Shown: positions 8,573-52,420, numbered from the stretch's first letter. The stretch is 64,000 nt of DNA from Torpedo marmorata (GCA_977017645.1 OZ360224.1:80538001-80602000), one strand, 5' to 3'. A program made the numbers and translations. Notes: generated by a model not told the origin, from the letters alone.

Positions 8573-9514
8573 TATAATGTATGGCATAGAAACTGATTGA
8601 AAATCAATGCCAACATTTCTGAGAAAAGATAATACAACTTTGTAGAGTTAATGCCTCTGGTAAAGATGACAATGGCCAAGAGATGTTGTAATCGCCTCAT
8701 TGCTCTTGACATAAGAACAGGAGAACCAGCAAATCTTTCAGCTCCAGATCATTGGCCAAAAAGAGTTCTATTCAAAATTGTGCTCCCTGGGTGTTGGTGA
8801 AGGATGCAATTTGCCTTCTAGTGCCTGCCTACACTTACGCATGAAGAATGTGCTATTGGATTAGCTATCAACTGAGTTAGATGAGAAATTGAAAAGAACA
8901 AAGTAACATTTTACAAAGAGTAATTTTTCTTTCTGCAGATTGTGAAAAGTGTTACTGGTGTTAAATTTTTCCATCCTCCACTCAGCCCTTCTGCCTGATC
9001 TCTGACATTGAGGAAAATGTACCCATAGAGCTCACGGAAAGCTTGGGCCTGTTTTGTAACTCATTCTGCTGACTTACTGCCTCGCCTGCCATTCTCATCC
9101 AAACCCCAGTTCCTCTGGTCTTCCTGCACTCCATTGCTATTTTCTTGACAAACAGTAGCCTGGATTTGAAAGTAATAAAACTAATGAGAGAATACCAGTA
9201 AAGCACTTACCAAGTTATAAGCGCTTTGTTGTATTTTACAAAATTATATATGTTGAGAACCTAAAGTTGTATTTCATCCAATAAAGGTAATTGGCCATGA
9301 TTAGCAATTGTACCTTAACATAATCTGATTTTGATGGAATGGAAAATTCAGTTTAATTCTGAAGAAAAGTTGACACAGTCTCTTTAAAAAAAAGAAATGA
9401 ATCTGGGCTGCCAACTAGATAGCATTAAATATCTTGCTGAGTTACTTTTAATGAAGCTTACTTGCTTTGGATTGGCTGAACTTTCTAATATGGTTTCAAT
9501 TGTTCTGACCACAG

Positions 9515-11515
9515 GTATGTGACTGGTGCAAGCACATCCGACATACAAAAGAATATCTCGACTTTGGAGATGGAGAGCGACGGCTACAATTCTGCAGTGC
9601 AAAATGCCTCAATCAGTACAAAATGGACATTTTTTATAAAGAGACACAGGCCAATCTTCCTGCTGGCTTGTGTAATACGGTGCACCCTCCAGTAGAAAAA
9701 AAGTCCGATAACACAGCCGTGCAACTACTAACTCCGGAGTCTTGGAACATGCCACTGACTGATGCTCGGAGAAAGCCTCCATCTCCCGTGACACCTTCCT
9801 CTCAGTCTCAAGTCCCCATCCCTTCTGCATCTACTGCCCTCTCCCCGTCTGATCCTGCCAGTAGTTCTGCTGCCAAACTCCACACTCCAATCTCGAAGCC
9901 AATAGCTGCAAATGAGAGTCCAAACGTTCCTCCGATCCAGCTTCAGCAGCCAGCCAACATTGTGCCTCCAGTGGGTGTCCCTCCAGGTAATCCCTCCATG
10001 GTCATGACAAATCGAGGACCTGTCCCTCTGCCAGTATTCATGGAACAGCAGATGATGCATCAGATCCGTCCACCATTTATCCGAGGACCACATACTCCAA
10101 GCCCAAATAGTCCCCTGTCAAACCACATGATTTCAGGTCTTGGTCCCCCATCGGGTGGTTCCAGGACCATGGGTCCTAATTCAATCCCGATGCACAGGCC
10201 AATGCTTTCACCACATCTCCATCACCCATCAGCACCCTCAGTGCCAGCCAATCATCAAGGGTTACTTCCCCCGGCAGCACCCTTACCTAATGTTTCATTT
10301 CCACCTGTTAATATGATGCCAAATAGCCACATGCATGTCCCACACCTTTTAAACTTTGGAGTGCCATCACTTGCACCGTTAGTTCCTCCTCCGACTCTCT
10401 TGGTGCCCTATCCTGTCATTGTTCCATTGCCTGTGCCCATTCCAATCCCCATTCCAATTCCTCACATGTTTGACTCCAAGAACACCAATGGGATTTCCGG
10501 TAGTGCTGAGAGTTTCATTCCAAGCACAACTAACAATGAAGATGACACTAAAGAGCCAAACAGTTCTTTGGCATCGAATCTCGGGCAGCAGGGAGCTTCC
10601 AAGCCTATTAAAGCCTCAACTAACTGCTCAAGCCATTCTTTGAACCAGCCATCCATGCTTCTTGACACCAGCAGGAGTGAGATTGTCGATCTAACTGTCA
10701 AGCCTAATGGTCCAATTAAAAGTGATTTTTCTTTCTCTGATGGAGTGGACTTTCTACACGATGAGGTGATAGACTTGACCATGAGCCACAGAAGCAGACT
10801 TAATCACGTTGGTCACAAACCTCTACATGCTTCTGTGAAAGTTGAAAATGAAGGCAGAAGTGTTGTAGATTTGACTCTTTCCAGTCCGGATAAACGGAAC
10901 TGTATTGACTGTAGGGATTTTCCTCATTTGAACCCTATCGAAACAAAGGTGTTATCTTGCAGCGGTGCTTCCCACTGCAGCACTCTCCAGCTAAATTCAG
11001 GAAGCTCGGGAGGTGACTCGGATCAAACACCTTGTAATCTGGTTATGAATGGCACAAAGAACGTGGACCTTTCCCACTTCTCAGAAAACCCTTCAGACCA
11101 GCAGCAGCAGCAGTCACAGCCACCGCCACAGCAGCAGCCACCGCCGCCGCCGCAGCAGCAGCCGCAGCAGCAGCTGGAGGAGATCGCTGTCAGCGAGCTG
11201 GAGTCAGTCAAAGAAAACAACTGCACATCAAACTGTCAGCTGGAGTTAGAGGCAGGTAAGAAGGCCTCAATTGAATCACCCCTGGGTGGGGTGGACAGGC
11301 AGGATGTAAATCATAATCCTGCAGATGAGGACCATGCATATGCCTTGAGAGTAGTACCCAAGACGGGCTGCTTGATTCAGCCTGTGCCAAAAGCGACTGA
11401 AAAGACTGCCATAGCACCCTGCATAACCTCAACGCCAATACTCAACACAGGGCCCGTGGACAGTGAGCCGCCACTGAAACGCAGATGTCTCCGGATTCGA
11501 AACCAGAACAAGTAA
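9515..11515 (+). CDS. SOBP: Sine oculis-binding protein homolog, large last coding exon (second FCS zinc finger, Pro-rich region, SIM-like motifs, C-terminal NLS)
   Basis: Acceptor ...TTCTGACCACAG|GTA at 9514/9515, in frame with ORF 9623-11515. Reads [49 protein letters not shown]...[25 protein letters not shown]...[15 protein letters not shown], recognised as vertebrate SOBP. Upstream exons not seen in the window. Confidence 0.97.
11099..11173 (+). repeat. Coding CAG/CCG trinucleotide tract (polyQ/polyP) in SOBP
   Basis: Encodes [25 protein letters not shown]. Confidence 0.9.
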
Positions 11516-18722: not shown

Positions 18723-19333
18723 CACTTCACTTGTACATCCAGAGGACTTATTTACTGCATCCGGTGCTCCCTTTGTGGCTTTCTATACATTGGAGAGACC
18801 GGTCGTAGATTGGGAGATCGCTTCGCTCAGCACCTCCGCTCGGTTCGCAACAACAGCGACCTCCCAGTGGCCAACCATTTCAATTCTGGGTCACACTCCC
18901 ACACTCACATGTCTGTCCATGGCCTCATGTACTATCCCACCCAGACTACCCGCAAACTGGAGGAACAACATCTCATATTCCGTCTCGGCACTCTCCAGCC
19001 AGATGGAATTAACATTGACTTTTCTGCTTTCCACTAAACCTGCTTGTTGTTCCCTTCCCCTCCCCCCTCACCTGTCCTTCCTGTGTTTCTCCAGCTACCC
19101 AGCCATCCCTCCTCCCCCTCTTTGCTACTGTCCCCTCCCTCCTTTCTCCACCTATTATCTCCTGCCTTTCCCACCCCCCTTCCCCCCTCACTCCTTTGTT
19201 CGGACGTCTGCCGGCATTTTCTCATACTTTGAAGAAGGGCTCAAGCCTGAAACGTCGGTTATGTATTTCTACCTTTGCTACATAAAAGACACTGTTTGAC
19301 CTGCTGAGTTCTCCAGCTTTTGTGTTTTTTACT
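18723..19333 (+). mobile_element. 5'-truncated Penelope-like insertion (GIY-YIG end + pLTR)
   Basis: Near-identical to 45938-46543; flanked by TCATGACAGTAG (18711-18722, 19333-19344). Confidence 0.92.
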
Positions 19334-19578
19334 CATGACAGTAGATGTGAGTGCGACAGGGCGGTAGTCATTGAGGCAGGACACTGTCGACTTCTTCGGC
19401 ACGGGGATGATAGTAGCGGATTTGAAGCACGTTGGAACCACGGCACTGCTCAGGGAGATGTTAAAGATGTCGGTAAGAACATCAGCCAGCTGGGCCGCAC
19501 ATCCCCTGAGCACTCTGCCGGGAATGTTATCTGGACCAGCAGCTTTCCGTGAGTTAACCTTACTTAACACTCTCCTCA

Positions 19579-19751
19579 CATTTTCTCATACTTTGAAGAA
19601 GGGCTCAAGCCTGAAACGTCGGTTATGTATTTCTACCTTTGCTACATAAAAGACACTGTTTGACCTGCTGAGTTCTCCAGCTTTTGTGTTTTTTACTCAT
19701 GACAGTAGATGTGAGTGCGACAGGGCGGTAGTCATTGAGGCAGGACACTGT
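19579..19751 (+). repeat. 173-bp local duplication of 19215-19387 (pLTR end + LINE flank)
   Basis: Direct copy at offset 364, sharing private variants (GAGTTCTCCAGCTTTTGTG). Confidence 0.9.
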
Positions 19752-22635: not shown

Positions 22636-23318
22636 ATGATGTCAGTTTAGTTTCCAGAAATTCCATACCGGATAGTGAAGTCTTTACATGTTGCTGTGTA
22701 CTAGCAAGAAGTGTGTACCTTGACCTAGGTGTGTCACTCTCTCTCAATCAGAAGGCCATTCAACAGGTCTACTACGTGCTGCACTGAAGGAAGTTACCAC
22801 ACTCCTGCACATCTTTATGGTTTTGAAGTAGTTTAACCTGCCAGTTTAATCCTTGTTGAATCTTTCAGCATTTAATTGCTCTCCTGGGCAGTGGCAAATT
22901 AGTTTGAATTATAATCATGCCAATCTCTGTTTTCCTTGTGACAGATTTAATGAAATGATTTGGTGATTTTTTTTTATTAGTTCTTATTTGACAAGTAATT
23001 TTGTAAAATCAGCAATTAGTGAGCACTGTCCAAATGGGTGGGTGTTATTACCAATTTAATTTTTCAAGAGAACTTGAATTTGTATAACATCTTTCACCAT
23101 ATCAGAATAATTGTATCAATTCACAGCAATGAATGAATTCATCAGGAACCCAAAACACTAACAAAGAGCAATGATTAATTTTGGTGCTTTTGTTTGAAGG
23201 GTAAAAATGTTGGCTTGGTCACCCATATTGCTATCCTTTTGTTTTGAATATTCTGATATTGTATGTGCGCCTGATGTACCTTAAGAAACAGAGAGACCCA
23301 GGTTTCCATGTGTATAGT

Positions 23319-23557
23319 AAAAACACAAAAATGCTAGAGGAACTCAGCAGGTCTCGCAGCTTCCATAGGAGGTAAAGATATATGACCAACGTTTCGGGCC
23401 TGAGCCTTCCTCATTCACACACCTTGAGGAAGGGCTCAGGCCCGAAACGTCGGTCATATATCGTTACCTCCTACAGACGGTGCAGGATCTGTTGAATTCC
23501 TCCAGTATTTCTGTGTTTTTACTGCAATCACAGCGTCTGCAGACTTCTGTGTTTCAC
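23319..23557. mobile_element. Non-autonomous PLE fold-back element (two inverted pLTR arms)
   Basis: Arms about 23319-23413 and 23425-23520 are reverse complements; TSD TCCATGT(G/T)TATAGT at 23305-23318 and 23558-23571. Confidence 0.9.
23421..23454 (+). ncRNA. Minimal hammerhead-like ribozyme motif (PLE type)
   Basis: ACC-TTGAGGA-A-GGGC TCAG GCCC-GAAA-CGTC-GGT: variant core, stem II, palindromic ACGU stem III, GUC cleavage triplet, 3-bp stem I. Confidence 0.6.
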
Positions 23558-26500
23558 TCCATGTTTATAGTTCCCTGAATGTGGCCACACAGGTCAGTAG
23601 GGTGGTGAAGATGGCATATGGCATGCTTGCCTTCATCGATTATGGCATACAATGTGAGAATTGGGATGTTATGATGCAACTTTACAAAACACTGGTTTGA
23701 CCGCACCATAGAGTATTGTGCACTGATCTGGTGGGTACACTCTAGGAAGGATGTGATTGTACTGGAGAAAGTGAAGAACAGATTAGTGTAGATGGGTAAA
23801 AGGTTCAGCATGGCCATAGTGGGTCGAAGAGCAAGTTTCTGTGCTGTATGACTCTAAATTTGCGTATGTTCTATTGGTGCAGCACCCCCTACATCGATCT
23901 GATTTTGTCTCTGAAACAGACTGTTAACTCATGGGCTTAGGACTAAGAGGCAAGAGTGATAACTGTAGCTCAAGCCTGACACTACTTGCCATTCCATAGC
24001 AAGGTGCAGAGTTCTCGGTCAACCAGTATCATCATATTTAGATTTGGCTGCGTGTTCTAAACCTATGGCCGAATGTGGTTTTGTGCTTCACTCAAGGTCA
24101 AACATTATATTCCAGTGGAGAACTGACACCAAACATATTATGAACTTTAAATGGGATGCTAAACGCAGTTTAAACCTAACCCAAATAGTGATACACCTGA
24201 ACAGCTAATGCATATATCTAGGTTGTGGAACTTGCAGCTGATTTATGTTGAATTTAATCTCAACATTACATCTTCTAGGACCTGCTCTCCTCTAAGCAGA
24301 GTGAGACAGGCCAGTGTAAATTAAACCTACATGTCAGTCTATTCATACAATTTTTATTTCCTACAATTCAAAAATTGCACACGGACACTTTTATCCACAT
24401 GTTTTTGGGATGTTCCATTGTTAACATTTGTTGTTCACCCCTAAGGGAAGAGTAACCTTCAGTTCCTTCTATAGAAGGAGTGCCCACATGGCTGTTAGGA
24501 AATGAATTCCAGCATTTAGCCCCAGCAACAATAAATAGCAATATCTCAGTCAAGCTGACGTGTTGCTGTCCTTGTACATTTAGGTGGTCGAGTTCACAGG
24601 TTTAAAGTGCTTTTGAAATCTTGGTGAATTGATGCTTAGCTTCTTGAGAAATATGGATATTGTCTGGTAACCACTAACGATGGCAACCATTGTTCATTGG
24701 TAGTGGAGAGAGTGACTGTTTAGGGTGTTAGTTGGGGGAGTGATCAAGCGGGTGGCTTTCTCCTGGATGATGTTGAGCTTCTCAAGTGTAGGATCCAGGT
24801 ACACGAAGAGCATTCCATCACAATCCTAATTTGTATCTTGAAGATAATGGGAGTCATAAAGTGATTTGGTCTTGGGTCATTTCTTCTAATTGTGGTATTT
24901 ATTGGCTCATCCAATTAAGTTTCTGGTAAATGATAACTCAGAATGTATTGAATGTATTGTTGAATATCGGGGAGGTAATTGACTACTACTTCTGACATGA
25001 AATTATAATTGTCCATGTTCTCATGGCTTGTCTCTGTGTGCCCTCGCATAGTCCTCACTTTATTGACCAATGTTTTTAGCACGTTGCAGATGTTACATTT
25101 TGTGTTTATCCTGATTATATTTAAAGTGCAGCTGTTTAGGTACGTTTCCTGATGACCCTCATTTGGGATCTTAACAGAATAATTCCTCCTGTGAGCCACA
25201 GAACATGAGGGGAGTGGCTTCTGATAGCCAGCAGCAAAGAACCCAGCTAATGTCCAGCAGTATTAATCAGTGATGAACATAGTTCAGTGCTTTGATCTGG
25301 AGAAGGTAATGTGCAACCCTGATATGCTAATTAAATGGATATTTGTTCATAAATAGGCACAGCATTGGTTTTCAGTGAATTTTGAAATCTAAAATGGCAC
25401 TGGAGTGCAGTGACTTCTTTCCAATGTCTGGACACCAAGCAAAACTAAGCTTTTCACAGTATATTGGTACATATGATAATAAACAATATATCTAAATTAT
25501 TGTCAATGGTCTCTACCACTCCACACCTCCCTTTTTACCTCATTATTTCCACAAATATACTACGGGTAAATACTGGGCCAATTGGAAATCACTTCCACCA
25601 ATCGGTGAGGAAACAGTTCCATAATCCTGACAATTAGGAGAGAACTTGCCTTCAATGACTGGGTCAAACACAACCATTAATGGAGGATCATTTGCCAAGA
25701 AATGCATTGGAAGGTCAAAAAGTAACAACCAAAAGCAAAATGAGTGAATCCTCCAATGAATGTGGTAAATCACAACCCTCTGCATTAATTAACCAATTTT
25801 ATATAGCAGTGGACACTATTTATCCACTAATGCACTGACTCAGATTTTGTGGTCGACAGTGATCCTTGCAGTTCCACTTGCTCATTGTACCTGTTCTTGC
25901 CCATATGTTTTGTGGAGTTTTGCACTGGAAGTTATGGTGTTTATAAATCTGATTCCGCACAGCCCTTCCTCTTAGGGTGTCTGTATTCTGCAATTTCCCA
26001 CTGTAACAATTACATGTATAACCACCACATTTTACCAATTTCCAGGATAGATAGTGGACAACTGTCTTCGTAGAATTAAAATGATAAACGCTGTAAATTC
26101 TCAGTGGTCAGATGGCAATGTTGGGGTGATGAAATTCAGAGGGAAGATTATATATTGGCACCACATCATCATTCATGGGTAGGTCATATAATACCTATGT
26201 CATTTGAAGTTTTATTAGGGAGGAAGTGACCAATCATGATGCCAAAGTTCAAATGAAGCAATAGGTTAGTACAAACATTAGAGACACTGAGATTAATGCA
26301 ATAAAATATCCATAATGGGATTAACAGTTGACAATAAAATTGAGGAATTGTTTATTGTCATATGTACCAAGATACAGTAAAAAGCCTTGTTTTGTGTGCT
26401 ATCCAGGTAAGTCAACTCATACAATGGGCAGTGCAATAATAAACATCCAGTGTAATATTACATTGTGAAATGGTTCAGAGCATAGAGCAAAGTACAAGAA

Positions 26501-39782: not shown

Positions 39783-40269
39783 ACATGACTACCTTCAGCA
39801 GCACTCGATTTCTCTCATCGCAAGCACTCGGCTAGCTTCTACTCTGTATTTGCAAGAATGTTATGAAGCAATCAATCACACCCTCTCCCCTCCCCCATCC
39901 CGTCAGAGGTTTGAGGAGCTCACCAGTACCGCCAGTGACCCACAGCTTTCAAACCCTCCGTCTACAAATGGCATGATGTCGTGACACGGGTGGTTAACTG
40001 GAGGTGTATGGTTGCAGGGCTGTAAAGATCCTCAAGTAAAACAAATGGTTTGAAGGAGTGTCCAAGGCCATTGTCCCCTCCCATTCCCTTGCCTTATAGT
40101 GTCCTCTATCTGACCACCAGTTGATTTGGTTAATCATCCCAGCTGTTCTAGGTACGCTGATTAATATACAATACTCCTACCCCATTCCCCCCACCCCACC
40201 CCCACTCTGTCTCTCTCGTACACACACACATACAAAGTACTGACCTATATTGACAAAAGTGGTCACATG

Positions 40270-40570
40270 GGGTCACAGACTAAGGATAAGGGATTAACCA
40301 TTTAGGATTGAGATGAAGAGAAACCTTTTCACTCAAAGAGTTGTGAACTTGTCGAACTCCCCACCACAGAAAGTTGTTTAGGCAAGTTCATTAGATTTAT
40401 TCAAAAGGGAGTTGTATGTGGCCCTCGTGGCTAAAGGATTCAAGTGGTATGGAGAGAAAGCAGGGATAAGGTGCTGAGGTTACATGATCAGCCATGATCG
40501 TATTGAAAGATGTTGCAGGCTCGAAGGGCTGAATGGCCTTCTCCTGCACCTATTTTCTATGAATCTATAA
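40270..40570 (+). mobile_element. CR1 3' end
   Basis: GATCAGCCATGATCGTATTGAA...GGCTCGAAGGGCTGAATGGCCTTCTCCTGCACCTATTTTCTATG. Confidence 0.8.
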
Positions 40571-41079
40571 TTTAATTCCTGCCAACACTTAGAAACAACA
40601 AACGTGTTAAATTATTCGACGTGTTTGTTTCATTTCTCACTTGGAAATGCAAGAAATATGAAATGCTTCTCTAAAACAGGTCGAGAGCAAATCCACAGCT
40701 GCATTCACGCCTGTCCTTTATCACATTCTAACCACCACTTTGCTCATTTCCATCTGTTTCATGCCAGGAGCACCTAATTGAAAATAAAATCCTTGACACT
40801 GGCCAGTTAAATTCGGACCGTCAGTGACAGGACAAATCCTGATGTTGTATTCCCATCTTCTGTCAGGACAGCTGAACTTAACTACCTACAGAAGTAATAA
40901 ATCAAATTCCCAATGGCATAAAAAAAGAACGATGGAAATGGGTGTGCACCCTGACACCAATTATGACTGAATACTTATCGGTAATTTAATCGTGTCTCTT
41001 CCTGAGAATGTCTTGGAGTTGTAAAATTAGTATTTGTTTGAGAAGACAAAGCGAAGCTGTTCTTTTCTTTGCAAAACAA

Positions 41080-41414
41080 TTATGACTTTTACACAGCCGC
41101 TGCGTAACGGGAAATTCTCGCAAATTTCCTGCAACGCTGGCTGTGTAAGAAGGTAGTGACGGAAATTAGTAACTAATTTCCGTCCCGACATATTTCCTGC
41201 AGCAGCCCTAGACAATTTTGTGGACTGCCTGCAGTCTAAACTGAACTGCAGGCGGTCCGCAACAATGGGCGAATGAATACGACGTCCACCCCCCGAAATC
41301 ACCGCAACGCAGGAAGTTAGTGTAAATGTCCTTCCTGTGTGAACAGCCGCTCCAGAGGGTAAGTATGCAAATTGATGACGGGAAATTCTCGGTACTTATG
41401 TCTAAAAACCCTAA
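41080..41414. mobile_element. Palindrome-rich, CpG-retaining putative MITE (PIF/Harbinger-like)
   Basis: Ends CTTTTACACAG... and ...GTCTAAAAACCC|TAA; several internal hairpins; repeated ACGGGAAATTCTCG near both ends. Confidence 0.5.
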
Positions 41415-42522
41415 ATGTAACTCATGATTTGTGTGTGTACAGGGCAGTATAAGTACAAGTGACTCCCAACAAGGTTAAACTGTTTGTGCTTATCATAAAC
41501 GTGATGGGACACCAACAGAAATGTGAAGGAAAATTGCTCTATTTATGATTGTTATAATTGCAGAAATCAGTTCTATTAATAAAGCATTTGGAAAGGTGGT
41601 AAATAAGAACATCTGCAGATGCTGGAGTCTAGTGCAATACACAAAAGTGCTGGAGAATCTCAGCAGGTCACGCAGCATCCATAAGAAGTAAAAGGCAGTT
41701 AGCATTTCAGGCCTGAGCCCTTCATCAAGATTTTCAAAAATCAGGCAGATGCCTGAATAAAAAGTTGGCAGAAGGGGAAGCACAGTCTAACAGGTAAGAG
41801 GTGATAGGTAGATACAGGTGGGAGGGGGAAGTAGAGAAAGAAGCTGAGGTGATAGTGGAGAGGGCAGAGGTCTAAAAATGATAGCTCTTTGATAGAGGAA
41901 GGAAAGGAAGGGAAGGGGCTGGTGAGCTGGAGGAGAGGGATGAGGGAAAGGGTGAGATCGGAGGGAGGGGGTTAATGGAATTGGAGAAGTCACTGTTCAT
42001 GCCGTCTGATTGCAGACTACCCAGATGTAATATAAGGTGTTGTTCCTTCAGTGTGTGGGTGGCCTTATCTTGGCAGTATATGAAACCATGTCAGTGTGGC
42101 AATGATGTGTGGATTGAAGTGGCTGGCCACTGGAAGGTCCTTGCTGTTGCAGCAGACAGAGCGAAGATGGTCAATGAAGCGATTTCCTCCAATCTCCACC
42201 CAGTCTCGCCAAAGTAGATGAGGCCACATCAGGAGCACTGGATGCAGTAAATGACCCCCAACAGATTCAGAAGTGAAGTGTTGCTTCACTTGGAAGCAAC
42301 AGTGGTCAGGGAGGAGGTGTAAGTGCAAGTGTAGCACTTCTTGGGGTCACAGGGGTGAGTACCAGGGGATTGGTGGGAAGAGATGAGAAACGCGGTCATA
42401 GAGGGAGCAAGCCCAGTAGAAAGAAGAGAAGGGAAGATGTATCTGGTAAAAAACACAAATGCTGGAGAAACTCAGCAGGTCAAACAGTGTCTTTTATGTA
42501 GCAAAGGTAGAAATACATAACC

Positions 42523-42550
42523 GACGTTTCGGGCTTGAGCCCTTCATCAA
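42523..42550 (-). ncRNA. Minimal hammerhead-like motif in inverted pLTR
   Basis: Reverse complement TTGATGAAGGGCTCAAGCCCGAAACGTC. Confidence 0.55.
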
Positions 42551-42784
42551 AGTATGAGAAAATGCCGGCAGGCATCCGAACAAAAGAGTGAGGGGGGAAG
42601 GGGGGTTGGCAAAGGCAGGAGATGATAGGTGAAGAAAGGTGGGAGGGGACAGCAGCAAAGAGGGGGAGGAGGGATGGCTGGGTGGGTGGAAAAAACAGGA
42701 AGGATTCACCTATCATCTCCTGCCTTTGCCACCCCCCCCCCCTTACTCCTTTGTTCGGACACCTGCTGGCATTTTCTCATACTT

Positions 42785-42812
42785 TTGATGAAGGGCTCAA
42801 GCCCGAAACGTC
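42785..42812 (+). ncRNA. Minimal hammerhead-like motif in 5' pLTR
   Basis: TTGATGA-A-GGGC TCAA GCCC-GAAA-CGTC. Confidence 0.55.
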
Positions 42813-42964
42813 GGTTATGTATTTCTACCTTTGCTACATAAAAGACACTGTTTGACCTGCTGAGTTTCTCCAGCATTTGTGTTTTTTACTTCAACCACTG
42901 TGTCTACAGATTTTCGTGTTTTACTTCTGAATTCTACAACAACTCTGTGAAAACTCTTTGAGGG

Positions 42965-45900
42965 ATGCCTACCCTGAAGAAGTTCGCCTTTGCTCTCCGA
43001 AGGGAGTTCTGTGGGATTCTCTCTCACTGCTCCCCATCTGCAACCCCTGCTGCTCTCAAGCTCTACGACCATGTACTCACCCAGACTCGATTCCACAGCC
43101 ACGCTGCCTTCCTTGCTACTTGCCTCCGCCGCCATCTTGTGCCTCGTGGCTTCCAGCTTCGATTCCAGGCCTCGCAGTTTGGCCCTCGCAAGGACCTCAG
43201 GTACCTCCACAGCATCGACTGCTGCTCTCTCCGCTTCTCCCAACGACTCCTCCGCACCACCCTCACCTCGATGCGGAGATACTAGCGGCAACTTGCCCTC
43301 TACCTGCCACAGCTCCGGACCTCGCTGGCCATGGCCTGCAGCGGACCCCTCCTATACTACATCCGCTGCCGGATCCACGCGTTCAGCCGCCGGCTCTACA
43401 CTCACCTGGCGTCCAACAAGAACCATAAGCTTGCCTCCCTCAAGACTGCAGCCTCTGCGACCCATCTCGGCCTCGGCCGCCTGCCCTCTGGAGCTCCCAA
43501 CGCCATGGCCGCCGACCCGATCCCTGGTCCCGGCCGCTGTCTCACCGGAGCTCCCAATGCCACAGCCGCCCACTCCTACCCGCGCCCCGGGCGCCAACAC
43601 GACGGTACTCCTGACGCCACGGCCGCCCACTCCAGCCCGGGCCCTGAGCACCTACTCACCAGAGCTCCCGATGCCTCCACTGCCGACTCCCGACACAGAC
43701 TTTTACCTGCTGGAGCCTCCCACGCTGACTGCCACTGGAGTCCTCATCTCGCTACTGGATCCCACTTACCTATCCCCCTCACTACTCCTTCCCTATCCTC
43801 CTACACCTCTCACTACTCCACCCCCATCTCCCCCTCTCTGCCCCCTCTCCTCCCCAACCCTCAGACCTCATCCCCCCCTCTCTCTGGCTACCCTCCCTAC
43901 CCCACTCTCCCACCCTCCTACACCCCCCACCTCCGACCCCCCCTCCCCCCACCAACACCCCTCCTCCTCCCTCCAACCTCCCCCACCCTCCACCTTCCCC
44001 CTCTGACCTCCCCAATCCTCCCCCTCCCCCCAACACCCTCCACAACACCGATTCCCCACTCCAACCCCGGCTTGGTTTTTACTATCCCCTCCGACCTTCC
44101 CCTCTCTGAGACGGAGCGCTCGGTCCTCAGTAGAGGCCTCACCTTCGTCCCCCTCCGCCAACACCTCAACGAGTTCTGCGCACGCCGTGATGCCGAACTC
44201 TTCTTCCGTCGCCTCCGCCTCCGGGCTCACTTTCATGACCGTGACTCTCCACCCCCCACCCAAGACCCTTTCTCCCACTTCAAGCCTTCTTCCTCTTCCT
44301 GGACACCTCGTCCTGGCCAGCTGCCCGCTCTGGACCTTTTTATTTCCAACTGCCGCCGAGGCATCAACCGTCTCAACTTCACCACCCCCCTCTCGTATTC
44401 CAACCTCACCTCCTCAGAACGGTCTGCCCTCCACTCTCTCCGCAACAATCCCAACCTCACCATCAAACCCGCAGACAAGGGCGGTGCGGTTGTGGTCTGG
44501 CGCACTGACCTCTACCTTGCCGAGGCCAGTCGACAGCTCTCAGACACCTCCTCCTACCGACCCCTCCCACAGGATCCCACCACTGCACATCAAGCCACTG
44601 TCTCCAACACCATCTCCGACCTCATCACCTGCGGTCACCTCCCCTCCACGGCCACCGACCTCATTCTCCCCCACCCCCGCACTGCCCGTTTCTACCTTCT
44701 ACCCAAGATACACAAACCCAACCATCCAGGCAGACCCATTGTTTCTGCCTGCTCCTGCCCCACCGAACTAGTTTCATCTTACCTTGACTCCATCTTTTCT
44801 CCCTTGGTCCAATCCCTCCCCACCTACATCCGCGATACCTCACATGCCCTCCATCTCCTCAATGACTTCAGATTCCCTGAACCGGACCGCATTATCTTCA
44901 TCATGGATGTCCAATCCCTTTATACCTCCATCCCCCACACAGAAGGTCTGAAAGCACTTCGCTTCTTCCTGGACAAAAGACTCGACCAGTCATCCTCTAC
45001 CACCACCCTCCTCCGCCTGGCAGAACTTGTCCTCACTCTCAATAACTTCTCCTTCAACTCATCCCACTTCCTCCAAATCAAAGGAGTAGCCATGGGTACC
45101 CGCATGGGTCCCAGCTACGCTTGCCTGTTTGTGGGCTTTGTAGACCAATCCATGCTGCAAGCCTACACAGGCAAGACCCCTCATCTCTTCCTCCGTTATA
45201 TCGACGACTGCATCGGGGCTGCCTCATGCACCCGCGATGAGCTTGTCAACTTCATCCACTTCGCATCCAACTTCCACCACGATCTCAAACTCACCTGGTC
45301 CATCTCCGATAACACTCTCCCCTTCCTGGATCTCTCTGTCTCCATCTCAGGAGACAAGCTTTCCACCGACATTTACTACAAACCCTCCAACTCCCACAAC
45401 TATCTGGACTACACTTCCTCACACCCTGTCCCCTGCAAAGATTCCATCCCCTTCTCTCAATTTCTCCGCCTCCGCCGCATCTGTTCCCAAGATGAGGTGT
45501 TCCAGTCCAGATCTTCTGAAATGTCTGCCTTTTTCCACAAACGTGGCTTCCCTTCCACCACTATCAACTCAGCCCTCACCCGCATCTCCTCCGTTTCCCG
45601 CTCATCTGCCCTGGTCCCCTCTGCCCCCAGATGCAACAAACATAGAATCCCCCTCATCCTCACCTACCACCCCACCAGCCTCCGCATCCAACACATTATC
45701 CGCCGGAATTTCCGGCACTTACTACAGGATCCCACTACCAGACACATTTTTCCTTCTCCTCCCCTCTCGGCCTTCCGTAGGGACCACTCCCTCTGCGATT
45801 CCCTCGTGCACTTATCCCTCCCCACCCATCGCACCCCCGGCACCTTCCCCTGTGCCCGCAGGAGGTGCAACACCTGCGCCCACACCTCCTCCCTCACCAT

Positions 45901-46252
45901 GGTCCGGGGCCCCAAACAGGCCTTTCAAGTGAAACTACACTTCACTTGTACATCCAGAGAACTTATTTACTGCATCCGGTGCTCCCTTTGTGGCTTTCTC
46001 TACATCGGAGAGACCGGTCGTAGATTGGGAGATCGCTTTGCTGAGCACCTCCTCTCCGTTTGCAACAACAGCAACCTCCCAGTAGCCAACCATTTCAATT
46101 CCGAGTCACACTCCCACACTCACATGTCTGTCCATGGTCTTATGTACTATCCCACCCAGACTACCCGCAAATTGGAGGAACAACATCTCATTTTCCGTCT
46201 GGGCACTCTCCAGCCAGATGGCATTAACATTGACTTTTCTGCTTTCCACTAA
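42965..46252 (+). pseudogene. PLE reverse transcriptase + GIY-YIG endonuclease ORF with one in-frame TAG (43283-43285)
   Basis: ORFs 42965-43285 and 43331-46252 are in the same frame. Motifs IKPADKGGAVVV, FYLLPKIHK, MDVQSLYTSI, GVAMGT, RYIDD, Cys linker CARRRCNTC, LIYCIRCSLCGFLYIGETGR...RFAEH. Confidence 0.93.
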
Positions 46253-46437
46253 ACCTGCTTGTCGTTTCCTTCCCCTCCCCCCTACCTGTCCTTCCTGTTT
46301 TTTTCCACCCACCCAGCTATCCCTCCTCTCCCTCTTTGCTGCTGTCCCCTCCCTCCTTTCTCCACCTATCATCTACCTTTGCCACCCCCACCCCCCTCAC
46401 TCTTTTGTTCGGACACCTGCTGGCATTTTCTCATATT

Positions 46438-46465
46438 TTGATGAAGGGCTCAAGCCTGAAACGTC
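46438..46465 (+). ncRNA. Minimal hammerhead-like motif in 3' pLTR
   Basis: TTGATGA-A-GGGC TCAA GCCT-GAAA-CGTC. Confidence 0.55.
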
Positions 46466-47309
46466 GGTTATGTATTTCTACCTTTGCTACATAAAAGACA
46501 CTGTTTGACCTGCTAAGTTTCTCCAGCATTTGTGTTTTTTACTTCAACCACGGTGTCTACAGATTTTCGTGTTTTACTACAAGATGTATCTGGTGCAGGA
46601 AATTGCCGAGAATTATATACTGGATGCAGAGGCTGGTGGGATCGTAGGTAAGAACAAGGGAACCCCTATCCTTGTTGCATCTGGGGACATGTGTGCGAAA
46701 TAGACTCCCACCTGTATCCACCTCTTTCCTCTTACCTGTTTGTTTGTGCTCCTCCCCCTCCCTGCCCCCCACCCCTACCTTTTTATTCAGCCATCTGCCT
46801 GATTTCCGACATTCCTGATGAAACGCTCAGGCCTAAAACGTGGGCTGCCTTTTAATTCCGAGGGATGCTGCGTAAATGCTGAGTTTCCCCAGCACTTTTG
46901 TATACTGCTCTAATTTGGAAAGGTGGTATTTTTCCAAATGTATCTCCGAAAGTGGCTTCCCTCAGCCACAATCAGTGAAAAGTGGGTCCTTATGATGCAC
47001 GAACACTAGCGTGGGCCTGAAGCCCCAGATCATGACTGATGTGAACGGGTGCCGCTTCTAGCAGCAGCCTCCCCGCCCAGCTCAGAAAGATGCTAAACCT
47101 GCTCAGTAGTCTTTATTTATTCTTGTATTCAGTCCCAAATCGGATTTGACTGTTAATCACTATTTTAACATTTGAATACTGAAATTTAAAGAGTAATTGT
47201 TTGAAACCCCTCTCCAGTTGTTCTCGCTCCCTACAATGTTGATGACTGGAGAAGGGCAATTTAAGCCACTTTAGTAACACAGAGTATCTCTTCACTTCGA
47301 AACATGCTC

Positions 47310-47540
47310 CGCGAATCAGGAGAAAACTGCGGGTGCTGGAATCTTGAGAAAATAATGAGCTGCTGGAGGAACGCGGTGGGTCAGGCACCATCCAGAGAGA
47401 AAAATTGGTCACTCAGCATTTCGGAGCGGCACCCTATATCAAGATTGATTAAAGGGTCCCAAACTGAAACATTGACTACTTCTCCCCATAGATGCTGCCC
47501 GACCTGCTGAGTCCTTCCAGCTTCTCTTTATTCACTCTAG
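47310..47540. mobile_element. Old PLE fold-back element
   Basis: GCTGGAGGAACGCGGTGGGTCAGGCACCATC arm and inverted GATGCTGCCCGACCTGCTGAGTCCTTCCAGC arm, with a degenerate TTGATTAAAGGG...GAAAC motif. Confidence 0.65.
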
Positions 47541-47580
47541 GAACCTGAATATCGGCACACATAGACATTAATATTAAATA

Positions 47581-47860
47581 GGGCGGCACGGTTGGCATAG
47601 CGGTTAGCGCAACGCCTTTACAGCGCCAGTGATTGAGACCGGAGTTCGAATCCCACGCTGTCTGTAAGGAGATTGTACATTCTCCCCGCGTCTGCGTGGG
47701 TTTTACCCGGGGGCTCCGGTTTCCTCCCACCGTTCGAAATGTACCGGGGGTGTAGGTTAATTGGGTGTAGATTGGGCGGCACGGACTCGTGGGCCGAAAT
47801 GGCCTGTTACCGTGCTGTATGCCTAAAATTAAAAAATTTTAATTTTTAATTTTTAAAAAT
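47581..47860 (+). mobile_element. Full-length tRNA-derived SINE (HE1/V-SINE-like)
   Basis: A box TGGCATAGCGG, B box GAGTTCGAATCC, V-like core, CR1-derived tail, AT-rich end. Confidence 0.9.
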
Positions 47861-49693
47861 CATATCCCGATAGAACCTGCGAATTCAAGGCGTTATTTAT
47901 GGAGTGTTTGAAAAGGAAGCGGTATCGCTTTCCAACTCAACTACTGAATACAACACGTACATTCGAGGTTATTTAAATTTAGCCTTCGTGTAAGACAGGC
48001 GATATCAGTTTGGATAGACGCTCGGTAAACAGGCTCCTGACTTTGAAGCGAAGATGGACAAAAATGGTTCGGGCAAAGGGTGAAAACACTCTTAGACTAA
48101 AATAAACATTGCGTCTTCATGTGGCCGTTTTATTGACCTTATGATGGAGAAATAAAGGCAAGGGTCTAAGTAAAATTCTTTGAAATTTTATGTTACAAAG
48201 TTTAGTTTTTACATTAACAATGGTGAAATTCCACAATAAATACCTTGGACTCAATCTTCTTAAAATCTAAACAAAATTGAAAAGCACAGTTTTTTTTTTT
48301 GGCACCTCGGAGTATGGAAGATAAATACATCTGCACTGTGGTATTTGTTTCATCTGTGTGTGCCAGTCATCTCCAGTTTGCAATTAGACTCTGATTAATA
48401 TTGAACACTATCTCCACCCCAGTTCCTAATGTTTCTTTTTGAAGGATGAAAGAACTGCCTTAACTTACTGCTTGTGAACTTACATTGTTCTTGAATGCCT
48501 GCTTCTTTGTTTTCTCATTATTAAGACACACCACACACACACACACACAATTTTCTTATATCTGGTAATGTTGAGTGGTTTCTGAACATTTATGTGATCT
48601 GTTTTAACAGAACTTTACTTGTATATTCAAATGCAGTTATGTAATTGTAACAAGACCATGTAGTGTTTTTATATCTTATTTCAGTATTCTTCCTGAACAT
48701 TTTATAGTATTATTTATTTTAAAATGTTTAAAATAAAGCAAAATGTTTGCATAAAACCAATTGAATCTTTCAATCCATGCAAACAGAACCAAGAAGTTGG
48801 GTGTATAACAGCTCTCAGTAATGGTGGGGCCATGGCATTATAAGAACCATGAAAAATATATATCTTTAGACAAGGAAAGTGTGGCATTAAATTAATTTTA
48901 AGATCTACCATGTCATTCATTTCATCAAAACAGAAAGTTATGGGATGTTTCTTTCTGTGTAATTTAAAAAAATGTTTTTGTGTTTTTCTCCCTTCATGTA
49001 TTACATATGAAGCCAGAAGAAATAAATGCTTAAAAATCCATGTACATTCCTAAAACAGTGGGTGAATATAATGTTGGTCCAAACTTCAGTATGCCTCTTT
49101 GAAAGCATCTTACAATGAGCTTTGCCTATACATTAGCTGTTTAATGGTTGTTCAATCAAGAGACATGAGAATCAAGCACATGAGACCTCCACATCTTACT
49201 GGGATTTTGCCAACTATTCCTATATCTTGGTATAAATTGATCCAGTAACAACCTGCATTTATAAAGCCCCATTTAACTTGGAATTTAACACACAGGTGCA
49301 TGTCACCAAGATGCATGAGAAAGATAGATAGCCAGCTGAATATTTAGAGGAGGTGATCATAAATGGGGTTATGAGGTACAAGGAAATTCCAGTGCGGGGC
49401 CTAAATAGCTGTAAGCTTGACCGTGAGTGATGGAGATCTGCGATTCTCAACCTGAATGTAGAAATGGAAGCAAACAAAATATAGCCAATGCTGAAAATTC
49501 AACTAATTAACAAAAAAGGATGCTGGCAACAGTCAGCAAATTAGATGGGAAAAGGAGAGATGTCAACTTTTGAAGATTGTGGAAATTTCAGATTACAACT
49601 AAGAATTTTAATTTAATGGATTTGGCAAGCCGATGGGAGGAGGATAGTTGGCTGGTCGTGTAGTGAAGACCAGAGTCATTGAGCTATACAGAA

Positions 49694-50582
49694 GTAAATC
49701 ACGAAAATCTGTAGACACCGTGGTTGAAGTAAAAACACAAAATGCTGGAGAAGCTCAGCAGGTCAACCAGTGTCCTTCATGTAGCAAAGGTAAAGATACA
49801 TAACCGACGTTTCGGGCTTGAGCCCTTCATCAAAGTGTGAGAAAATGCCGGCAGGCGTCCAAACAAAAGGGTGGGGGGGAAGGGGTGGCAAAGGCAGGAG
49901 ATGATAGATGGAGAAAGGAGGGAGGGGACAGCAGCAATGAGGGGGAGGAAGGATGGCTGGGTGGGTGGAAGAACTGGAAAGACAGAACAGGGGGAGGGGA
50001 AAGAAAAGGCTAGCAGGTTTAGTGGAAAGCAGAAAAGTCAATGTTCATGCCATCTGGCGGGAGAGTGCCCAGACGGAAAATAAGATGTTGTTCCTCCAAT
50101 CTGTGGGTGATCAGGGTGCGATGGTACACAAGACCATGGACGGACATGTGAGCACGGGAGCGTGACTCGAAATTGAAATGGTTGGCCACTGGGAGGTCGC
50201 TGTTGTTGCAAACGGAGCAGAGGTGCTGAGCGAAGCGATCTCCCAGTCTGCGACCGGTCTCTCCGATGTATAGAAAGCCACAAAGTTCTCTGGAAGTACA
50301 AGTGAAGTGTTGCTTCGCTTGGAAGGCCTGTTTGGGGCCCCGGAACATGGTGAGGGGGGAGGTGTGGGCGCAGGTGTTGCACCTCCTACGGGCACAGGGG
50401 AAGGTGCTGGCGGGGGTGCGATGGGTGGGGAGTGATGAGTGCACAAGGGAATCGTGGAGGGAGCGGTCCCTGCGGAAGGCCAAGAGGGGAGGAGAAGGAA
50501 AAATGTGTCTGGTGGTGGAATCCTGTAGTAAGTGCTGGAAATTCCAGTGGATAATGTGTTGGATGCCGAGGTTGGTGGGGTG
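49694..50582 (-). mobile_element. 5'-truncated Penelope-like insertion with internal deletion
   Basis: Reverse complement of 45665-46578, lacking the IYCIRCSL segment; TSD GAGCTATACAGAA at 49681-49693 and 50583-50595. Confidence 0.92.
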
Positions 50583-51340
50583 GAGCTATACAGAATGGAA
50601 TCTTTCCCTTCAGTCCAACTCATCCAATCTGACGAGGTTGTTCATTCATAAAAGTCCCATTTGCCTGCTTTTGCCCCACATCCCTCCAAACCTTTCCTAT
50701 CCAAGCACCTGTCTAAATGTCTTTTAAATGTCACATTTATACCCACCTCAACAGCTTCCTCTGGCAGCTTATTCCTATATCCACCACCCTCTGTGTGAAA
50801 AAGTTGCCCCTTTTAAATCTCACGTTAAACCTGTGCGCTCTAGTTTTAGACTCTCCTAACCTGGGGAAAAGACTGACAATTCATTTTATCTATGTTCCTT
50901 GTCATTTGTATTTCTTTATAAGATAACCCCTCAGCCTCCTGTGCCCCAGGGAAAAATGTCCTTGTCTATCCAGCCTCTCCTTATAACTCAAATCCTCCAG
51001 TCCTGGTAACGTTCTCGTGAATCTTTTCTGCACCCTTTCTGCTTTACCAGGGAGACCAGAACTGCACATAGTAATCAATATGTGGCCTTACCAAAACCTT
51101 TTACATATGTAACATGAAGTTCCAACTCCTCTACTCAGTGCCTTGACAAATGAAGGCAAGCATGCCAAAAACCTTTTACACCACCCTGCCTAGCCTTGTT
51201 GCCTCCTTCAGAGTACAATGTACCTGTACCTCTCTGTTCCAGAGCACTTTCCAGAATCCTGCAATGTAGTGTTACATTTCATCTCCCATTCCTTTGCCCA
51301 ATTTCCCCATTGATCTAAATCCAGTTGCAAACTTAAACAA
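50583..51340 (-). mobile_element. CR1 3' fragment (target of the PLE above)
   Basis: CCACCACCCTCTGTGTGAAAAAGTTGCCCC...GACCAGAACTGCACA...ATGAAGGCAAGCATGCCA. Confidence 0.8.
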
Positions 51341-51974
51341 CTTTGGTTAGTGTATAGTACTTGTTACAAGAGAGTTTTGGAACCTCTATATAGTGCATGG
51401 AGAGTTCAGAGAGGGAAGAATTGGGAAAGGTACAGATGAAGACTTCAGCAGCGGATGATTCAAGGTAGATGATGTTATAATTGTACTTGTTACTGAAGCA
51501 AACTTAAGGGGTTGGGAAGGCTCTGGAAAGCAGAGGTTCCAAATAATGTAGGAATGGTATGAAACTAAGGGTGGAAGGTGAGGCCACTTTAAAATTATCA
51601 ATGTTTAGTTGGAAGAAATTGGGGTTCACACAAGAAAATGTTCGAAGAGTGTTCCATCTGGGTTTTGCCTTGTTTGACCTTGAATAATAAAATTCAATCC
51701 AGTTTTGTTTGATCCACTTTTACGATCTGGGCATTATTGTTAAGGCCAATGCCATCCCAGATGAATTATTTATTCACTTACAGGCAGACAATAACTGCAA
51801 CATTAAGAACACATCTTGTCCTCCATCTGCATTTACTTTTTTTTATTTAAACTTGGTTACAAATACAGTAAATGATTGTCAGTTCCCTTAGAAATACAGT
51901 AAAAACCTACACATACAAATTTTACACCTTCAAAAGAATGAAGAGAATAAGATTGAGATATCACTGATACTAAA

Positions 51975-52420
51975 TGCAATATAGGCAGGTATTACTCGTT
52001 GATAGTTCTGCAGTGAACCCACTGCCATTCATGACAATCGTGGCAGTGAGCCCACCACATTTATCATGATATTAGTAGTGATAGTATTGACTCCTGACAA
52101 GGCAAATATCTGTGATGTTCTTGATAGAACAGGCAATTATACAATTCCCATTATCTGCTGTTAGTGGGAATAATGCTACTGGCATTCTATTATTCATGTA
52201 GCAATACCATTGGCACTGATTGCAATGTAGGCAATGATGCTATTGACATTGACTGCTCTGCAGGCAATGATATCATTGACATCAATACAGAGTCTTACCA
52301 TTGCCACCAATTATCATAAATGCAGTGAAACTGCCAATCATTCCGATGGTGTCAGTGATACCTTTGCATGCATTCATATTTAGACAGTGACACAATTGCC
52401 ATTCCATCATCATTCCCATT
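51975..52420. repeat. Highly diverged minisatellite, unit about 30-35 bp
   Basis: Recurrent GGCA(G/A)TGA(T)...ATTG(A/C)CATT motif. Confidence 0.55.

What the first reader, a model, noticed from the sequence alone, without database searches (positions are those of the whole stretch)
42448..46580. Near-intact Neptune-type Penelope element one base from a full ORF, nested in an older PLE
Seen: ORFs 42965-43285 and 43331-46252 share a frame and are separated by one TAG, giving about 1095 codons of RT + GIY-YIG. The pLTRs are near-identical and the 14-bp TSD is perfect. The target is an older, antisense PLE with the same inverted-pLTR architecture. Known: PLEs have RT + GIY-YIG and direct/inverted pLTRs, and a Cys-rich linker marks the Neptune group. 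Inferred: the family is young, possibly still active, and mobilises the short derivatives in this window; TAG is probably a CAG>TAG change.
Basis: partly seen in the sequence, partly recalled or inferred. Interest (0 to 1): 0.7.

Follow-up and report, generated by a model that had tools for sequence, protein, structure and literature searches.

The report
Dead copy of recent Penelope retrotransposon
This is a broken full-length copy of an abundant Penelope-type jumping gene, likely of a shark or ray, pasted inside an older relative in a layout already published; it is ordinary, but other copies are intact and nearly identical, so the family likely jumped recently.

Summary
The anatomy is real: a 4,133-bp Penelope-like element with RT and GIY-YIG, an inverted and two direct pLTRs, a perfect 14-bp TSD, and one TAG in a 1,095-codon frame, inside an older antisense PLE with its own 16-bp TSD. 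The TAG is private decay: 10 exact TAG versus 1,851 CAG contexts genome-wide, and TAG copies are scattered on the tree. No readthrough design. 'One base from intact' overstates it: about 70 linker codons are out of the family frame, and conserved RT residues are changed. This copy belongs to the family's oldest burst (nearest fetched copy 3.1% away; pLTRs 92-95% alike). The family itself is recent: 5 of 60 sampled loci have a whole ORF, and a clade 0.05-0.4% apart with different TSDs evolved under purifying selection (dN/dS about 0.10). Activity today is not shown. Nesting is not enriched (4 of 107 versus 1.8% background). Short pieces in the window are 5'-truncated copies from other waves. 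The same layout, nested antisense with an in-frame stop, is published for rotifer Pen2a_Av (PMC3846280). The scan noted similar elements and the long/short end asymmetry elsewhere in this genome. Neptune by motif; reference phylogeny not run.

The parts
42448..46580 (+). Full-length Neptune-type Penelope-like element, decayed copy
42434..42447 (.). Left copy of 14-bp target-site duplication
46581..46594 (.). Right copy of 14-bp target-site duplication
42448..42704 (-). Inverted pLTR; outer end at the short 3' end, without the 35-nt tail
42707..42925 (+). Direct 5' pLTR (5'-truncated tandem copy of the 3' end)
   Evidence: 209/215 identical to 46363-46578, 5 gap columns
42965..46252 (+). Single ORF of the family, 1,095 codons here, interrupted by one TAG
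43283..43285 (+). Private nonsense codon TAG (family CAG)
43469..43639 (+). In-frame 57-nt tandem repeat; 3 units here, from 0 to 15 more units in 93 copies measured
43845..44052 (+). C-rich, Pro-rich linker read out of the family frame through compensating indels
44474..45208 (+). RT core: DKG at 44474, DVQSLY at 44906, YIDD at 45197
45851..45877 (+). CX4CxxC linker (Neptune/Nematis type)
45965..46249 (+). C-terminal GIY-YIG endonuclease (IYCIRCSLC ... YIGET)
46363..46578 (+). 3' pLTR with the tail at 46544-46578 (long end)
42778..42820 (+). Minimal hammerhead-like motif in the 5' pLTR (U3-G8 core); copies at 46431-46473 (+) and 42515-42557 (-)
   Evidence: pattern read against PMC4209133; no Rfam hammerhead hit
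41602..42433 (-). Older host PLE, 3' part: degenerate endonuclease and 3' pLTR
   Evidence: 578 identities, 207 mismatches, 127 gap columns to copy L043
46595..46912 (-). Older host PLE, 5' part: about 95 nt of ORF remnant (to 46689) and inverted pLTR (about 46705-46912)
   Evidence: its two pLTRs 160 of 194 identical, 15 gap columns
41586..41601 (.). 16-bp TSD of the older PLE; second copy at 46913-46928

Best explanation
The stretch is a full-length copy of an abundant Neptune-type Penelope-like retrotransposon that sits antisense inside an older Penelope fragment between 14-bp target duplications, was likely inserted by target-primed reverse transcription during the family's oldest burst, and has since gained a private stop codon, linker frameshifts and RT substitutions that likely leave it dead. 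Shown: anatomy, TSDs, nesting, privacy of the TAG, the extra lesions, basal position on the tree, and intact near-identical copies elsewhere. Inferred mechanism: an intact donor made RT-endonuclease protein; the endonuclease cut both strands about 14 bp apart. One nick primed the long cDNA from the outer of two start sites on a tandem pLTR-ORF-pLTR RNA (end with tail). The other nick primed a short cDNA from the inner site, which gave the inverted pLTR. The target was likely hit by chance. The family went on as one ladder-like master lineage under purifying selection up to a very young wave that may still be active.
For: TAG in 10 versus CAG in 1,851 exact 24-mers. The 9 TAG rows in the 87-row tree form no clade: 6 lie in the basal star and 3 in the later clade of support 0.95. 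Window terminal branch 0.021; nearest copy 3.1%. Singleton changes across 36 copies fall evenly on codon positions 1/2/3 (268/250/273). Four linker anchors are out of frame here; the last is in frame in 87 of 94 other copies. E727D hits a position that is E in 120 of 120 homologues and T646I one that is T in 108 of 119. Whole ORFs in 7 of 107 other stretches, 5 of them among the 60 chromosome-ordered loci. L043 and L052 are 99.87% identical over 3,862 nt with different flanks and TSDs. Young-lineage changes are 42 synonymous to 13 non-synonymous, against 648 to 1,333 for 39 old copies pooled, p=8e-11. Ten of 10 inverted copies with both ends typed (of 18 flagged) have one long and one short end, p about 1e-4 if the ends were independent. 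The anole PLE protein cuts and extends both strands from two start sites (PMC11167929).
Against: The window copy's core RT-EN region has no stop or frameshift, and its 17:21 synonymous to non-synonymous ratio (omega 0.41) is lower than the pooled old value of 0.68; this was not tested formally and the copy was chosen for being open. The TAG and the C-run indels were not confirmed at this locus in independent reads. All 4 nested cases are antisense, which is weak but one-sided. The two-nick mechanism is borrowed from a Poseidon-clade element in vitro; self-priming on an antisense template is the published alternative (PMC3846280).
Confidence: 0.88

Rival explanations
1. The TAG is a designed feature: readthrough or a two-ORF layout.
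For: The frame continues after the stop and an ATG follows at 43331. Ten other fetched copies also have TAG. Stop recoding is known in Naiad PLEs (selenocysteine, PMC8557442 abstract).
Against: Only 0.5% of exact contexts have TAG. TAG copies are scattered and 3.4-5.2% from the window copy. Intact copies read Gln through a single ORF. At this base, contigs of runs X1, X3 and X4 read C at depths 76,022 of 76,050, 12,435 of 12,435 and 45 of 45.
Confidence: 0.01
2. This copy is a young, recently functional donor, and its TAG and linker indels are assembly errors or very recent events.
For: The TSD is perfect and the RT-EN core is free of stops and frameshifts. Indels lie in C-runs, where assemblies can err. 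The locus was not confirmed by raw reads.
Against: No relative is closer than 3.1% among 92 copies; the copy is basal. It has 21 amino-acid changes in the core, several at conserved sites. Young copies come through the same C-runs in frame (5 of 9 have whole ORFs), so the assembly does resolve them. pLTRs are only 92-95% alike.
Confidence: 0.05
3. The family prefers to insert antisense into other PLEs, so the nesting is targeted.
For: Four of 107 stretches are nested in an older PLE, all antisense. A rotifer precedent is also antisense (PMC3846280). The anole PLE cuts its own ORF-pLTR junction in vitro (PMC11167929).
Against: Older PLE covers 1.8% of 218,245 distal flank bases; binomial p=0.14; 4 of 4 antisense p=0.125. 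One of the four is the window itself. The sites differ in position along the host element.
Confidence: 0.08

Closest known systems
Pen2a_Av of Adineta vaga (PMC3846280; 12 passages read)
   Same: Secondary insertion into another PLE in opposite orientation; ORF with one in-frame stop; two 218-bp direct pLTRs plus an adjacent inverted pLTR; TSD; tail of about 31 bp on one end only.
   Different: Pen2a_Av is single-copy, 842 aa, has a 9-bp TSD and belongs to a Perere-related Penelope branch. Here there are thousands of copies, a Neptune-type Cys linker, a 14-bp TSD and a 1,158-1,286-aa ORF in intact copies.
Neptune clade of endonuclease-positive PLEs (PMC8557442; passages and supplement part 54 of 59)
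   Same: C-terminal GIY-YIG with CCHH pattern; CX2-5CxxC linker; 23 residues from CxxC to the Cys before GIY (25-27 in four Neptune rows, 7 in three Nematis rows, counted by eye); TMDV.SLY RT motif as in DreriNep1 and XtropNep4.
   Different: Longer N-terminal half, with a 57-nt in-frame tandem repeat and a Pro-rich linker; most full-length homologues are about 890-950 aa. No tree with named references was run, and the paper finds Neptune paraphyletic.
Poseidon PAc of Anolis carolinensis (PMC11167929; parts 1-2 of 4 read)
   Same: Tandem pLTR layout, hammerhead motif in the pLTR, two 3' ends about 35 nt apart (62 long, 25 short of 108 stretches; 21 others).
   Different: PAc is Poseidon clade (no Cys linker) and its ORF starts inside the hammerhead; here the ATG lies about 40 nt beyond the tail. 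No biochemistry exists for this family.
Minimal hammerhead ribozymes of metazoan PLEs (PMC4209133; parts 1-2 of 4 read)
   Same: Type I minimal core, extra base between positions 9 and 10.1, G10.1-C11.1 pair, palindromic stem III region.
   Different: Position 3 is U opposite G8 instead of C. The youngest clade has three further changes that fit the fold by eye. Cleavage is untested.

Membership tests
Endonuclease-positive PLE | Single ORF with PLE-type RT and C-terminal GIY-YIG | tested here: met
   whole single ORFs in 7 other copies. This copy is interrupted by a private TAG.
Endonuclease-positive PLE | Direct pLTRs, optional inverted pLTR | tested here: met
   18 of 107 stretches flagged with an inverted 5' edge.
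Endonuclease-positive PLE | Optional 30-40-nt tail at one end | tested here: met
   Ends cluster at 46543 and 46578, 35 nt apart.
Endonuclease-positive PLE | Target-site duplication | tested here: met
   14 bp exact here; 41 of 107 copies have 11 nt or more, null 8 of 1,500.
Endonuclease-positive PLE | Minimal hammerhead motif in pLTR | tested here: inconclusive
   The pattern is present and conserved in most rows, and stem II folds. But there is no Rfam hammerhead hit at E<=1, fold z-scores are only -1.0 to -1.8, and the core has U3-G8.
Endonuclease-positive PLE | Retained spliceosomal intron in the 5' leader (seen in some PLEs) | not tested
   No RNA holder was listed.
Neptune clade | CX2-5CxxC linker between RT and EN | tested here: met
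   CARRRCNTC at 45851; a similar pattern in 113 of 120 homologues.
Neptune clade | Long linker-to-GIY spacer and RT motifs as in Neptune rather than Nematis or Poseidon | tested here: met
   By eye against alignment rows of PMC8557442 Figs S1-S2: 23 residues versus 25-27 (Neptune) and 7 (Nematis).
Neptune clade | RT groups with named Neptune references in a phylogeny | not testable with these tools
   No named references were available as stored sequences: homologues are unnamed and there is no PDB hit.
Penelope/Poseidon clade | No Cys linker before GIY-YIG | tested here: not met
   The linker is present.
Naiad clade | N-terminal endonuclease | tested here: not met
   The endonuclease is C-terminal.

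The most novel reading that the evidence does not exclude
The family behind this dead copy is a still-active Neptune PLE of a 6.2-Gb shark or ray genome. It has on the order of 150 intact ORFs and evolves as a single L1-like master lineage. Its inverted insertions always pair one long and one short end because a protein dimer primes both cut strands at two fixed RNA sites. That would make it a natural system for working out how PLEs build inverted pLTRs.
Probability: 0.4. Interest if true: 0.45.

Novelty: new member of a known kind. Interest (0 to 1): 0.2.

Why it matters
The locus itself is an ordinary fossil; each of its features has a published precedent. The value lies in the family: a high-copy Neptune-type PLE with intact, nearly identical copies and a clean ladder of subfamilies in a large cartilaginous-fish genome. 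The only PLE biochemistry I found is on a Poseidon element (PMC11167929). A young Neptune family with thousands of junctions would allow tests of the two-start-site and inverted-pLTR mechanism, of the role of the Cys linker, and of PLE contribution to genome size in sharks and rays. It also warns that an open frame across a C-rich linker does not show an intact protein.

Tried and rejected
Readthrough or two-ORF design: rejected. Targeted nesting: not supported. Short pieces as a separate non-autonomous family driven by this copy: rejected; they are 5'-truncated copies with their own TSDs. Rfam scan of 40000-52000: 10 matches, all below gathering score and all on the fold-back at the inverted junction; no hammerhead family. 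PDB sequence search with an intact copy: no hit at E<=1. Insertion polymorphism: contigs of runs X1-X5 were laid twice. No listed contig bridged the junction or showed an empty site, so there is no verdict. X1 holds the right flank (46882-47522) with 10 differences over three contigs totalling 692 nt. Expression: no RNA holder listed. Pfam hit T6SS_VasE on the first ORF (E=0.046) was treated as chance. L076 and L077 (0.2% apart, 70 kb apart, same 5' junction) look like a segmental duplication and were not counted as young insertions. L059 has a 1,158-codon open frame but did not pass the start-motif test, so it was not counted as whole. In one search the hammerhead row of a copy with an upstream tandem piece can be that upstream pLTR and not the 3' one. 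Searches found no paper describing this family in a shark or ray; the Squalomix preprint had no whole-word occurrence of PLE or Penelope in its main text, and its supplements are closed; Repbase and Dfam could not be searched, so the family may be catalogued there. Sequence look-up in earlier scan notes returned nothing.

Full report
OBSERVATION. The frame starts at ATG 42965, meets TAG at 43283-43285 and runs on to TAA at 46250-46252, 1,095 codons in all. Pfam finds RVT_1 (E=2.4e-6) and GIY-YIG (E=0.007), both below their curated cut-offs. The motifs DKG, DVQSLY, YIDD, CARRRCNTC, IYCIRCSLC and YIGET are present in order. The element spans 42448-46580: inverted pLTR 42448-42704, direct pLTR 42707-42925, ORF, 3' pLTR 46363-46578. 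An exact 14-bp TSD flanks it. The pLTRs are 95% (direct pair) and 92% (inverted versus 3') alike by BLAST, and only the outer 106 nt of the fold-back are perfect.

HOST ELEMENT. Both flanks align to the family on the minus strand and are collinear across the TSD, with one gap of about 18 nt. The host is a 5'-truncated PLE of about 1.16 kb. It has an inverted pLTR (160 of 194 aligned bases identical to its 3' pLTR) and an exact 16-bp TSD at 41586-41601 and 46913-46928. It is about 74% identical to the family over aligned columns, so it belongs to an older family. The organism is likely a shark or ray. This is inferred from the best named homologue, a Chiloscyllium punctatum protein at 70% identity over 80% of the query; the genome has 6.2 Gb.

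THE STOP CODON. A search with the 5' ORF region gave 2,666 candidates, of which 40 were scored, at 95-97% identity. Of 29 other loci fetched, 27 have CAG and 2 TAG; that set is biased towards the window's own letters. Exact 24-mer counts over the genome are 10 with TAG, the window included, and 1,851 with CAG. In a tree of the RT-EN core (87 of 108 stretches; 21 left out for under 90% coverage) the 9 TAG rows form no clade. The stop is a recurrent private mutation.

NOT ONE BASE FROM FUNCTION. Against natural whole copies the window ORF has a 15-nt deletion near 43461 and fewer 57-nt repeat units. It also has four frame-changing indels between about 43845 and 44052 that cancel out. Four linker anchors are out of frame with the RT here; the last is in frame in 30 of 33 old and 57 of 61 later copies. 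The C-rich linker has no stops in the shifted frames and is a frameshift hotspot: only 1 of 33 old and 13 of 61 later copies keep all anchors in frame. The core carries 17 synonymous and 21 non-synonymous differences from the old-burst majority. They include E727D (E in 120 of 120 homologues), T646I (T in 108 of 119), S950L (81 of 119) and P677S (78 of 119). I could not confirm these at the locus in independent reads.

AGE OF THE COPY AND OF THE FAMILY. I fetched the 39 closest copies, 60 loci taken in chromosome order from the first 100 listed CAG matches (matches already fetched were skipped) and 8 further TAG copies. The window copy's nearest relative is 3.1% away; it lies in the basal star with a terminal branch of 0.021. 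From that star one ladder-like lineage leads to a clade of 9 copies within 0.4% of each other, on different sites with different TSDs or junctions. L043 and L052 differ at 5 of 3,862 positions. Whole ORFs of 1,158-1,286 aa occur in 7 of 107 stretches, 5 of them among the 60 ordered loci. Scaled to 1,851 matches this is about 150 whole ORFs; that is my arithmetic, and the sample favours young copies because it needs an exact 24-mer. Changes along the lineage to the young clade are 42 synonymous and 13 non-synonymous (omega 0.10), against 648 and 1,333 (0.68) for 39 old copies pooled, Fisher p=8e-11. Young-type markers match 365 places (leader; some are tandem pLTR arrays) and 5,375 places (tail). 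Among 50 of the 60 ordered loci with enough core, nearest-neighbour distances are under 0.5% in 9 (two of them a likely segmental duplicate), 0.5-1% in 5, 1-2% in 11, 2-3% in 11 and over 3% in 14. 'Young' needs care in this lineage. With the epaulette shark rate of 7e-10 per base per generation (PMC10587355, passages), 2% would be tens of millions of generations and 0.1% about a million. This is an inference that ignores CpG decay and RT errors. The youngest distances are similar to the nucleotide diversity reported there (0.002), so polymorphic insertions are plausible but not shown. Contigs of other coded organisms hold the family at 95-99% and above.

TARGETS AND ENDS. TSDs of 11-18 nt appear in 41 of 107 stretches against 8 of 1,500 shuffled pairs. 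Four of 107 stretches, the window included, are nested in an older PLE, all antisense and at different positions. Older PLE covers 1.8% of 218,245 distal flank bases, so neither the count (p=0.14) nor the orientation (p=0.125) is significant. 3' ends fall at two sites 35 nt apart (62 long, 25 short, 2 other, 19 without a 3' end in the stretch). Of 18 stretches with an inverted 5' edge, 10 had both ends typed, and all 10 pair one long with one short end (5 each way), p about 1e-4 under independence. Earlier scan notes reported this asymmetry on other DNA of this genome; a one-sided tail is in print (PMC3846280). It fits two nicks each priming from one of two start sites, as the anole protein cuts and extends both strands (PMC11167929). 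That step is inferred.

HAMMERHEAD. Each pLTR holds a minimal hammerhead-like pattern with U at position 3, matching the description in PMC4209133 by eye. Rfam gives no hammerhead hit and fold z-scores are weak, -1.0 to -1.8. Function is untested.

SHORT PIECES. 1708-1845 is 98.6% identical to several fetched copies and 97.8% to the window copy, with a 15-bp TSD. 18723-19333 is 99.0% to the young clade and 92.5% to the window copy, with a 12-bp TSD. 49694-50583 is 87-89% to the best fetched copies, with a 13-bp TSD. They are 5'-truncated insertions from different waves.

COMPARISON AND VERDICT. PMC3846280 (passages) describes Pen2a_Av as a secondary insertion into another PLE in opposite orientation, with an in-frame stop, two 218-bp pLTRs, an inverted pLTR, a tail and a TSD. 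That is the present finding point by point. The Cys linker, its spacing to GIY and the RT motifs match Neptune rows in the supplement of PMC8557442 (part 54 of 59), not Poseidon, Nematis or Naiad. No tree with named references was possible. Neptune elements are reported as widespread in vertebrates (10.64898/2026.07.22.740005, passages); PMC12602865 was seen only in a search listing. Verdict: a real but ordinary dead copy and a new member of a known kind; interest 0.2. The family, with its intact young clade, is the part worth following.

Noticed in passing
window 9509-11515 (+): A 668-codon open frame matching SOBP (sine oculis-binding protein, Pfam E=1e-95), likely a large host exon; the PLE lies 31 kb downstream, in an intron or beyond the gene.
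   Followed up: no
window 19215-19387 and 19579-19751: An exact 173-bp duplicate made of 119 bp of a young pLTR plus 54 bp of its LINE flank, placed 191 bp away inside the same LINE with a short microhomology; it looks like a local templated insertion at or after integration.
   Followed up: partly
window 43469-43639 and loci L031-L137: The 57-nt in-frame tandem repeat in the ORF's N-terminal half varies from 0 to 15 extra units among 93 copies; the youngest clade is uniform.
   Followed up: partly
L032 and L058, 3' junctions: Two copies inserted at what looks like the same position of a LINE-like RT sequence (similar flank words on both sides); the CR1 label is recalled, not from a call.
   Followed up: no
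G000:C5:20311147-20314394: Ten young-type leader matches at a 363-nt period, four on one strand and six on the other: an inverted array of tandem pLTR units, retrozyme-like.
   Followed up: no
G000:C25:62083399-62091127; L104: Tandem young full-length units about 3.8 kb apart (three leader matches in a row on C25, two copies in L104).
   Followed up: partly
window 969-1733 (-): GDSL esterase-like ORF (Pfam Lipase_GDSL_2 E=4e-10), likely ORF1 of a LINE; a solo pLTR piece at 1708-1845 is inserted at its edge.
   Followed up: no
young clade pLTRs (L043, L052, L078, L079, L092, L104, L106, L125, L126): The hammerhead-like motif of the youngest clade differs at three positions, each compatible with the fold by eye.
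   Followed up: partly
window 23316-23558: A small fold-back pair of older pLTRs about 75% identical to the family, with a C3-type hammerhead-like core.
   Followed up: no
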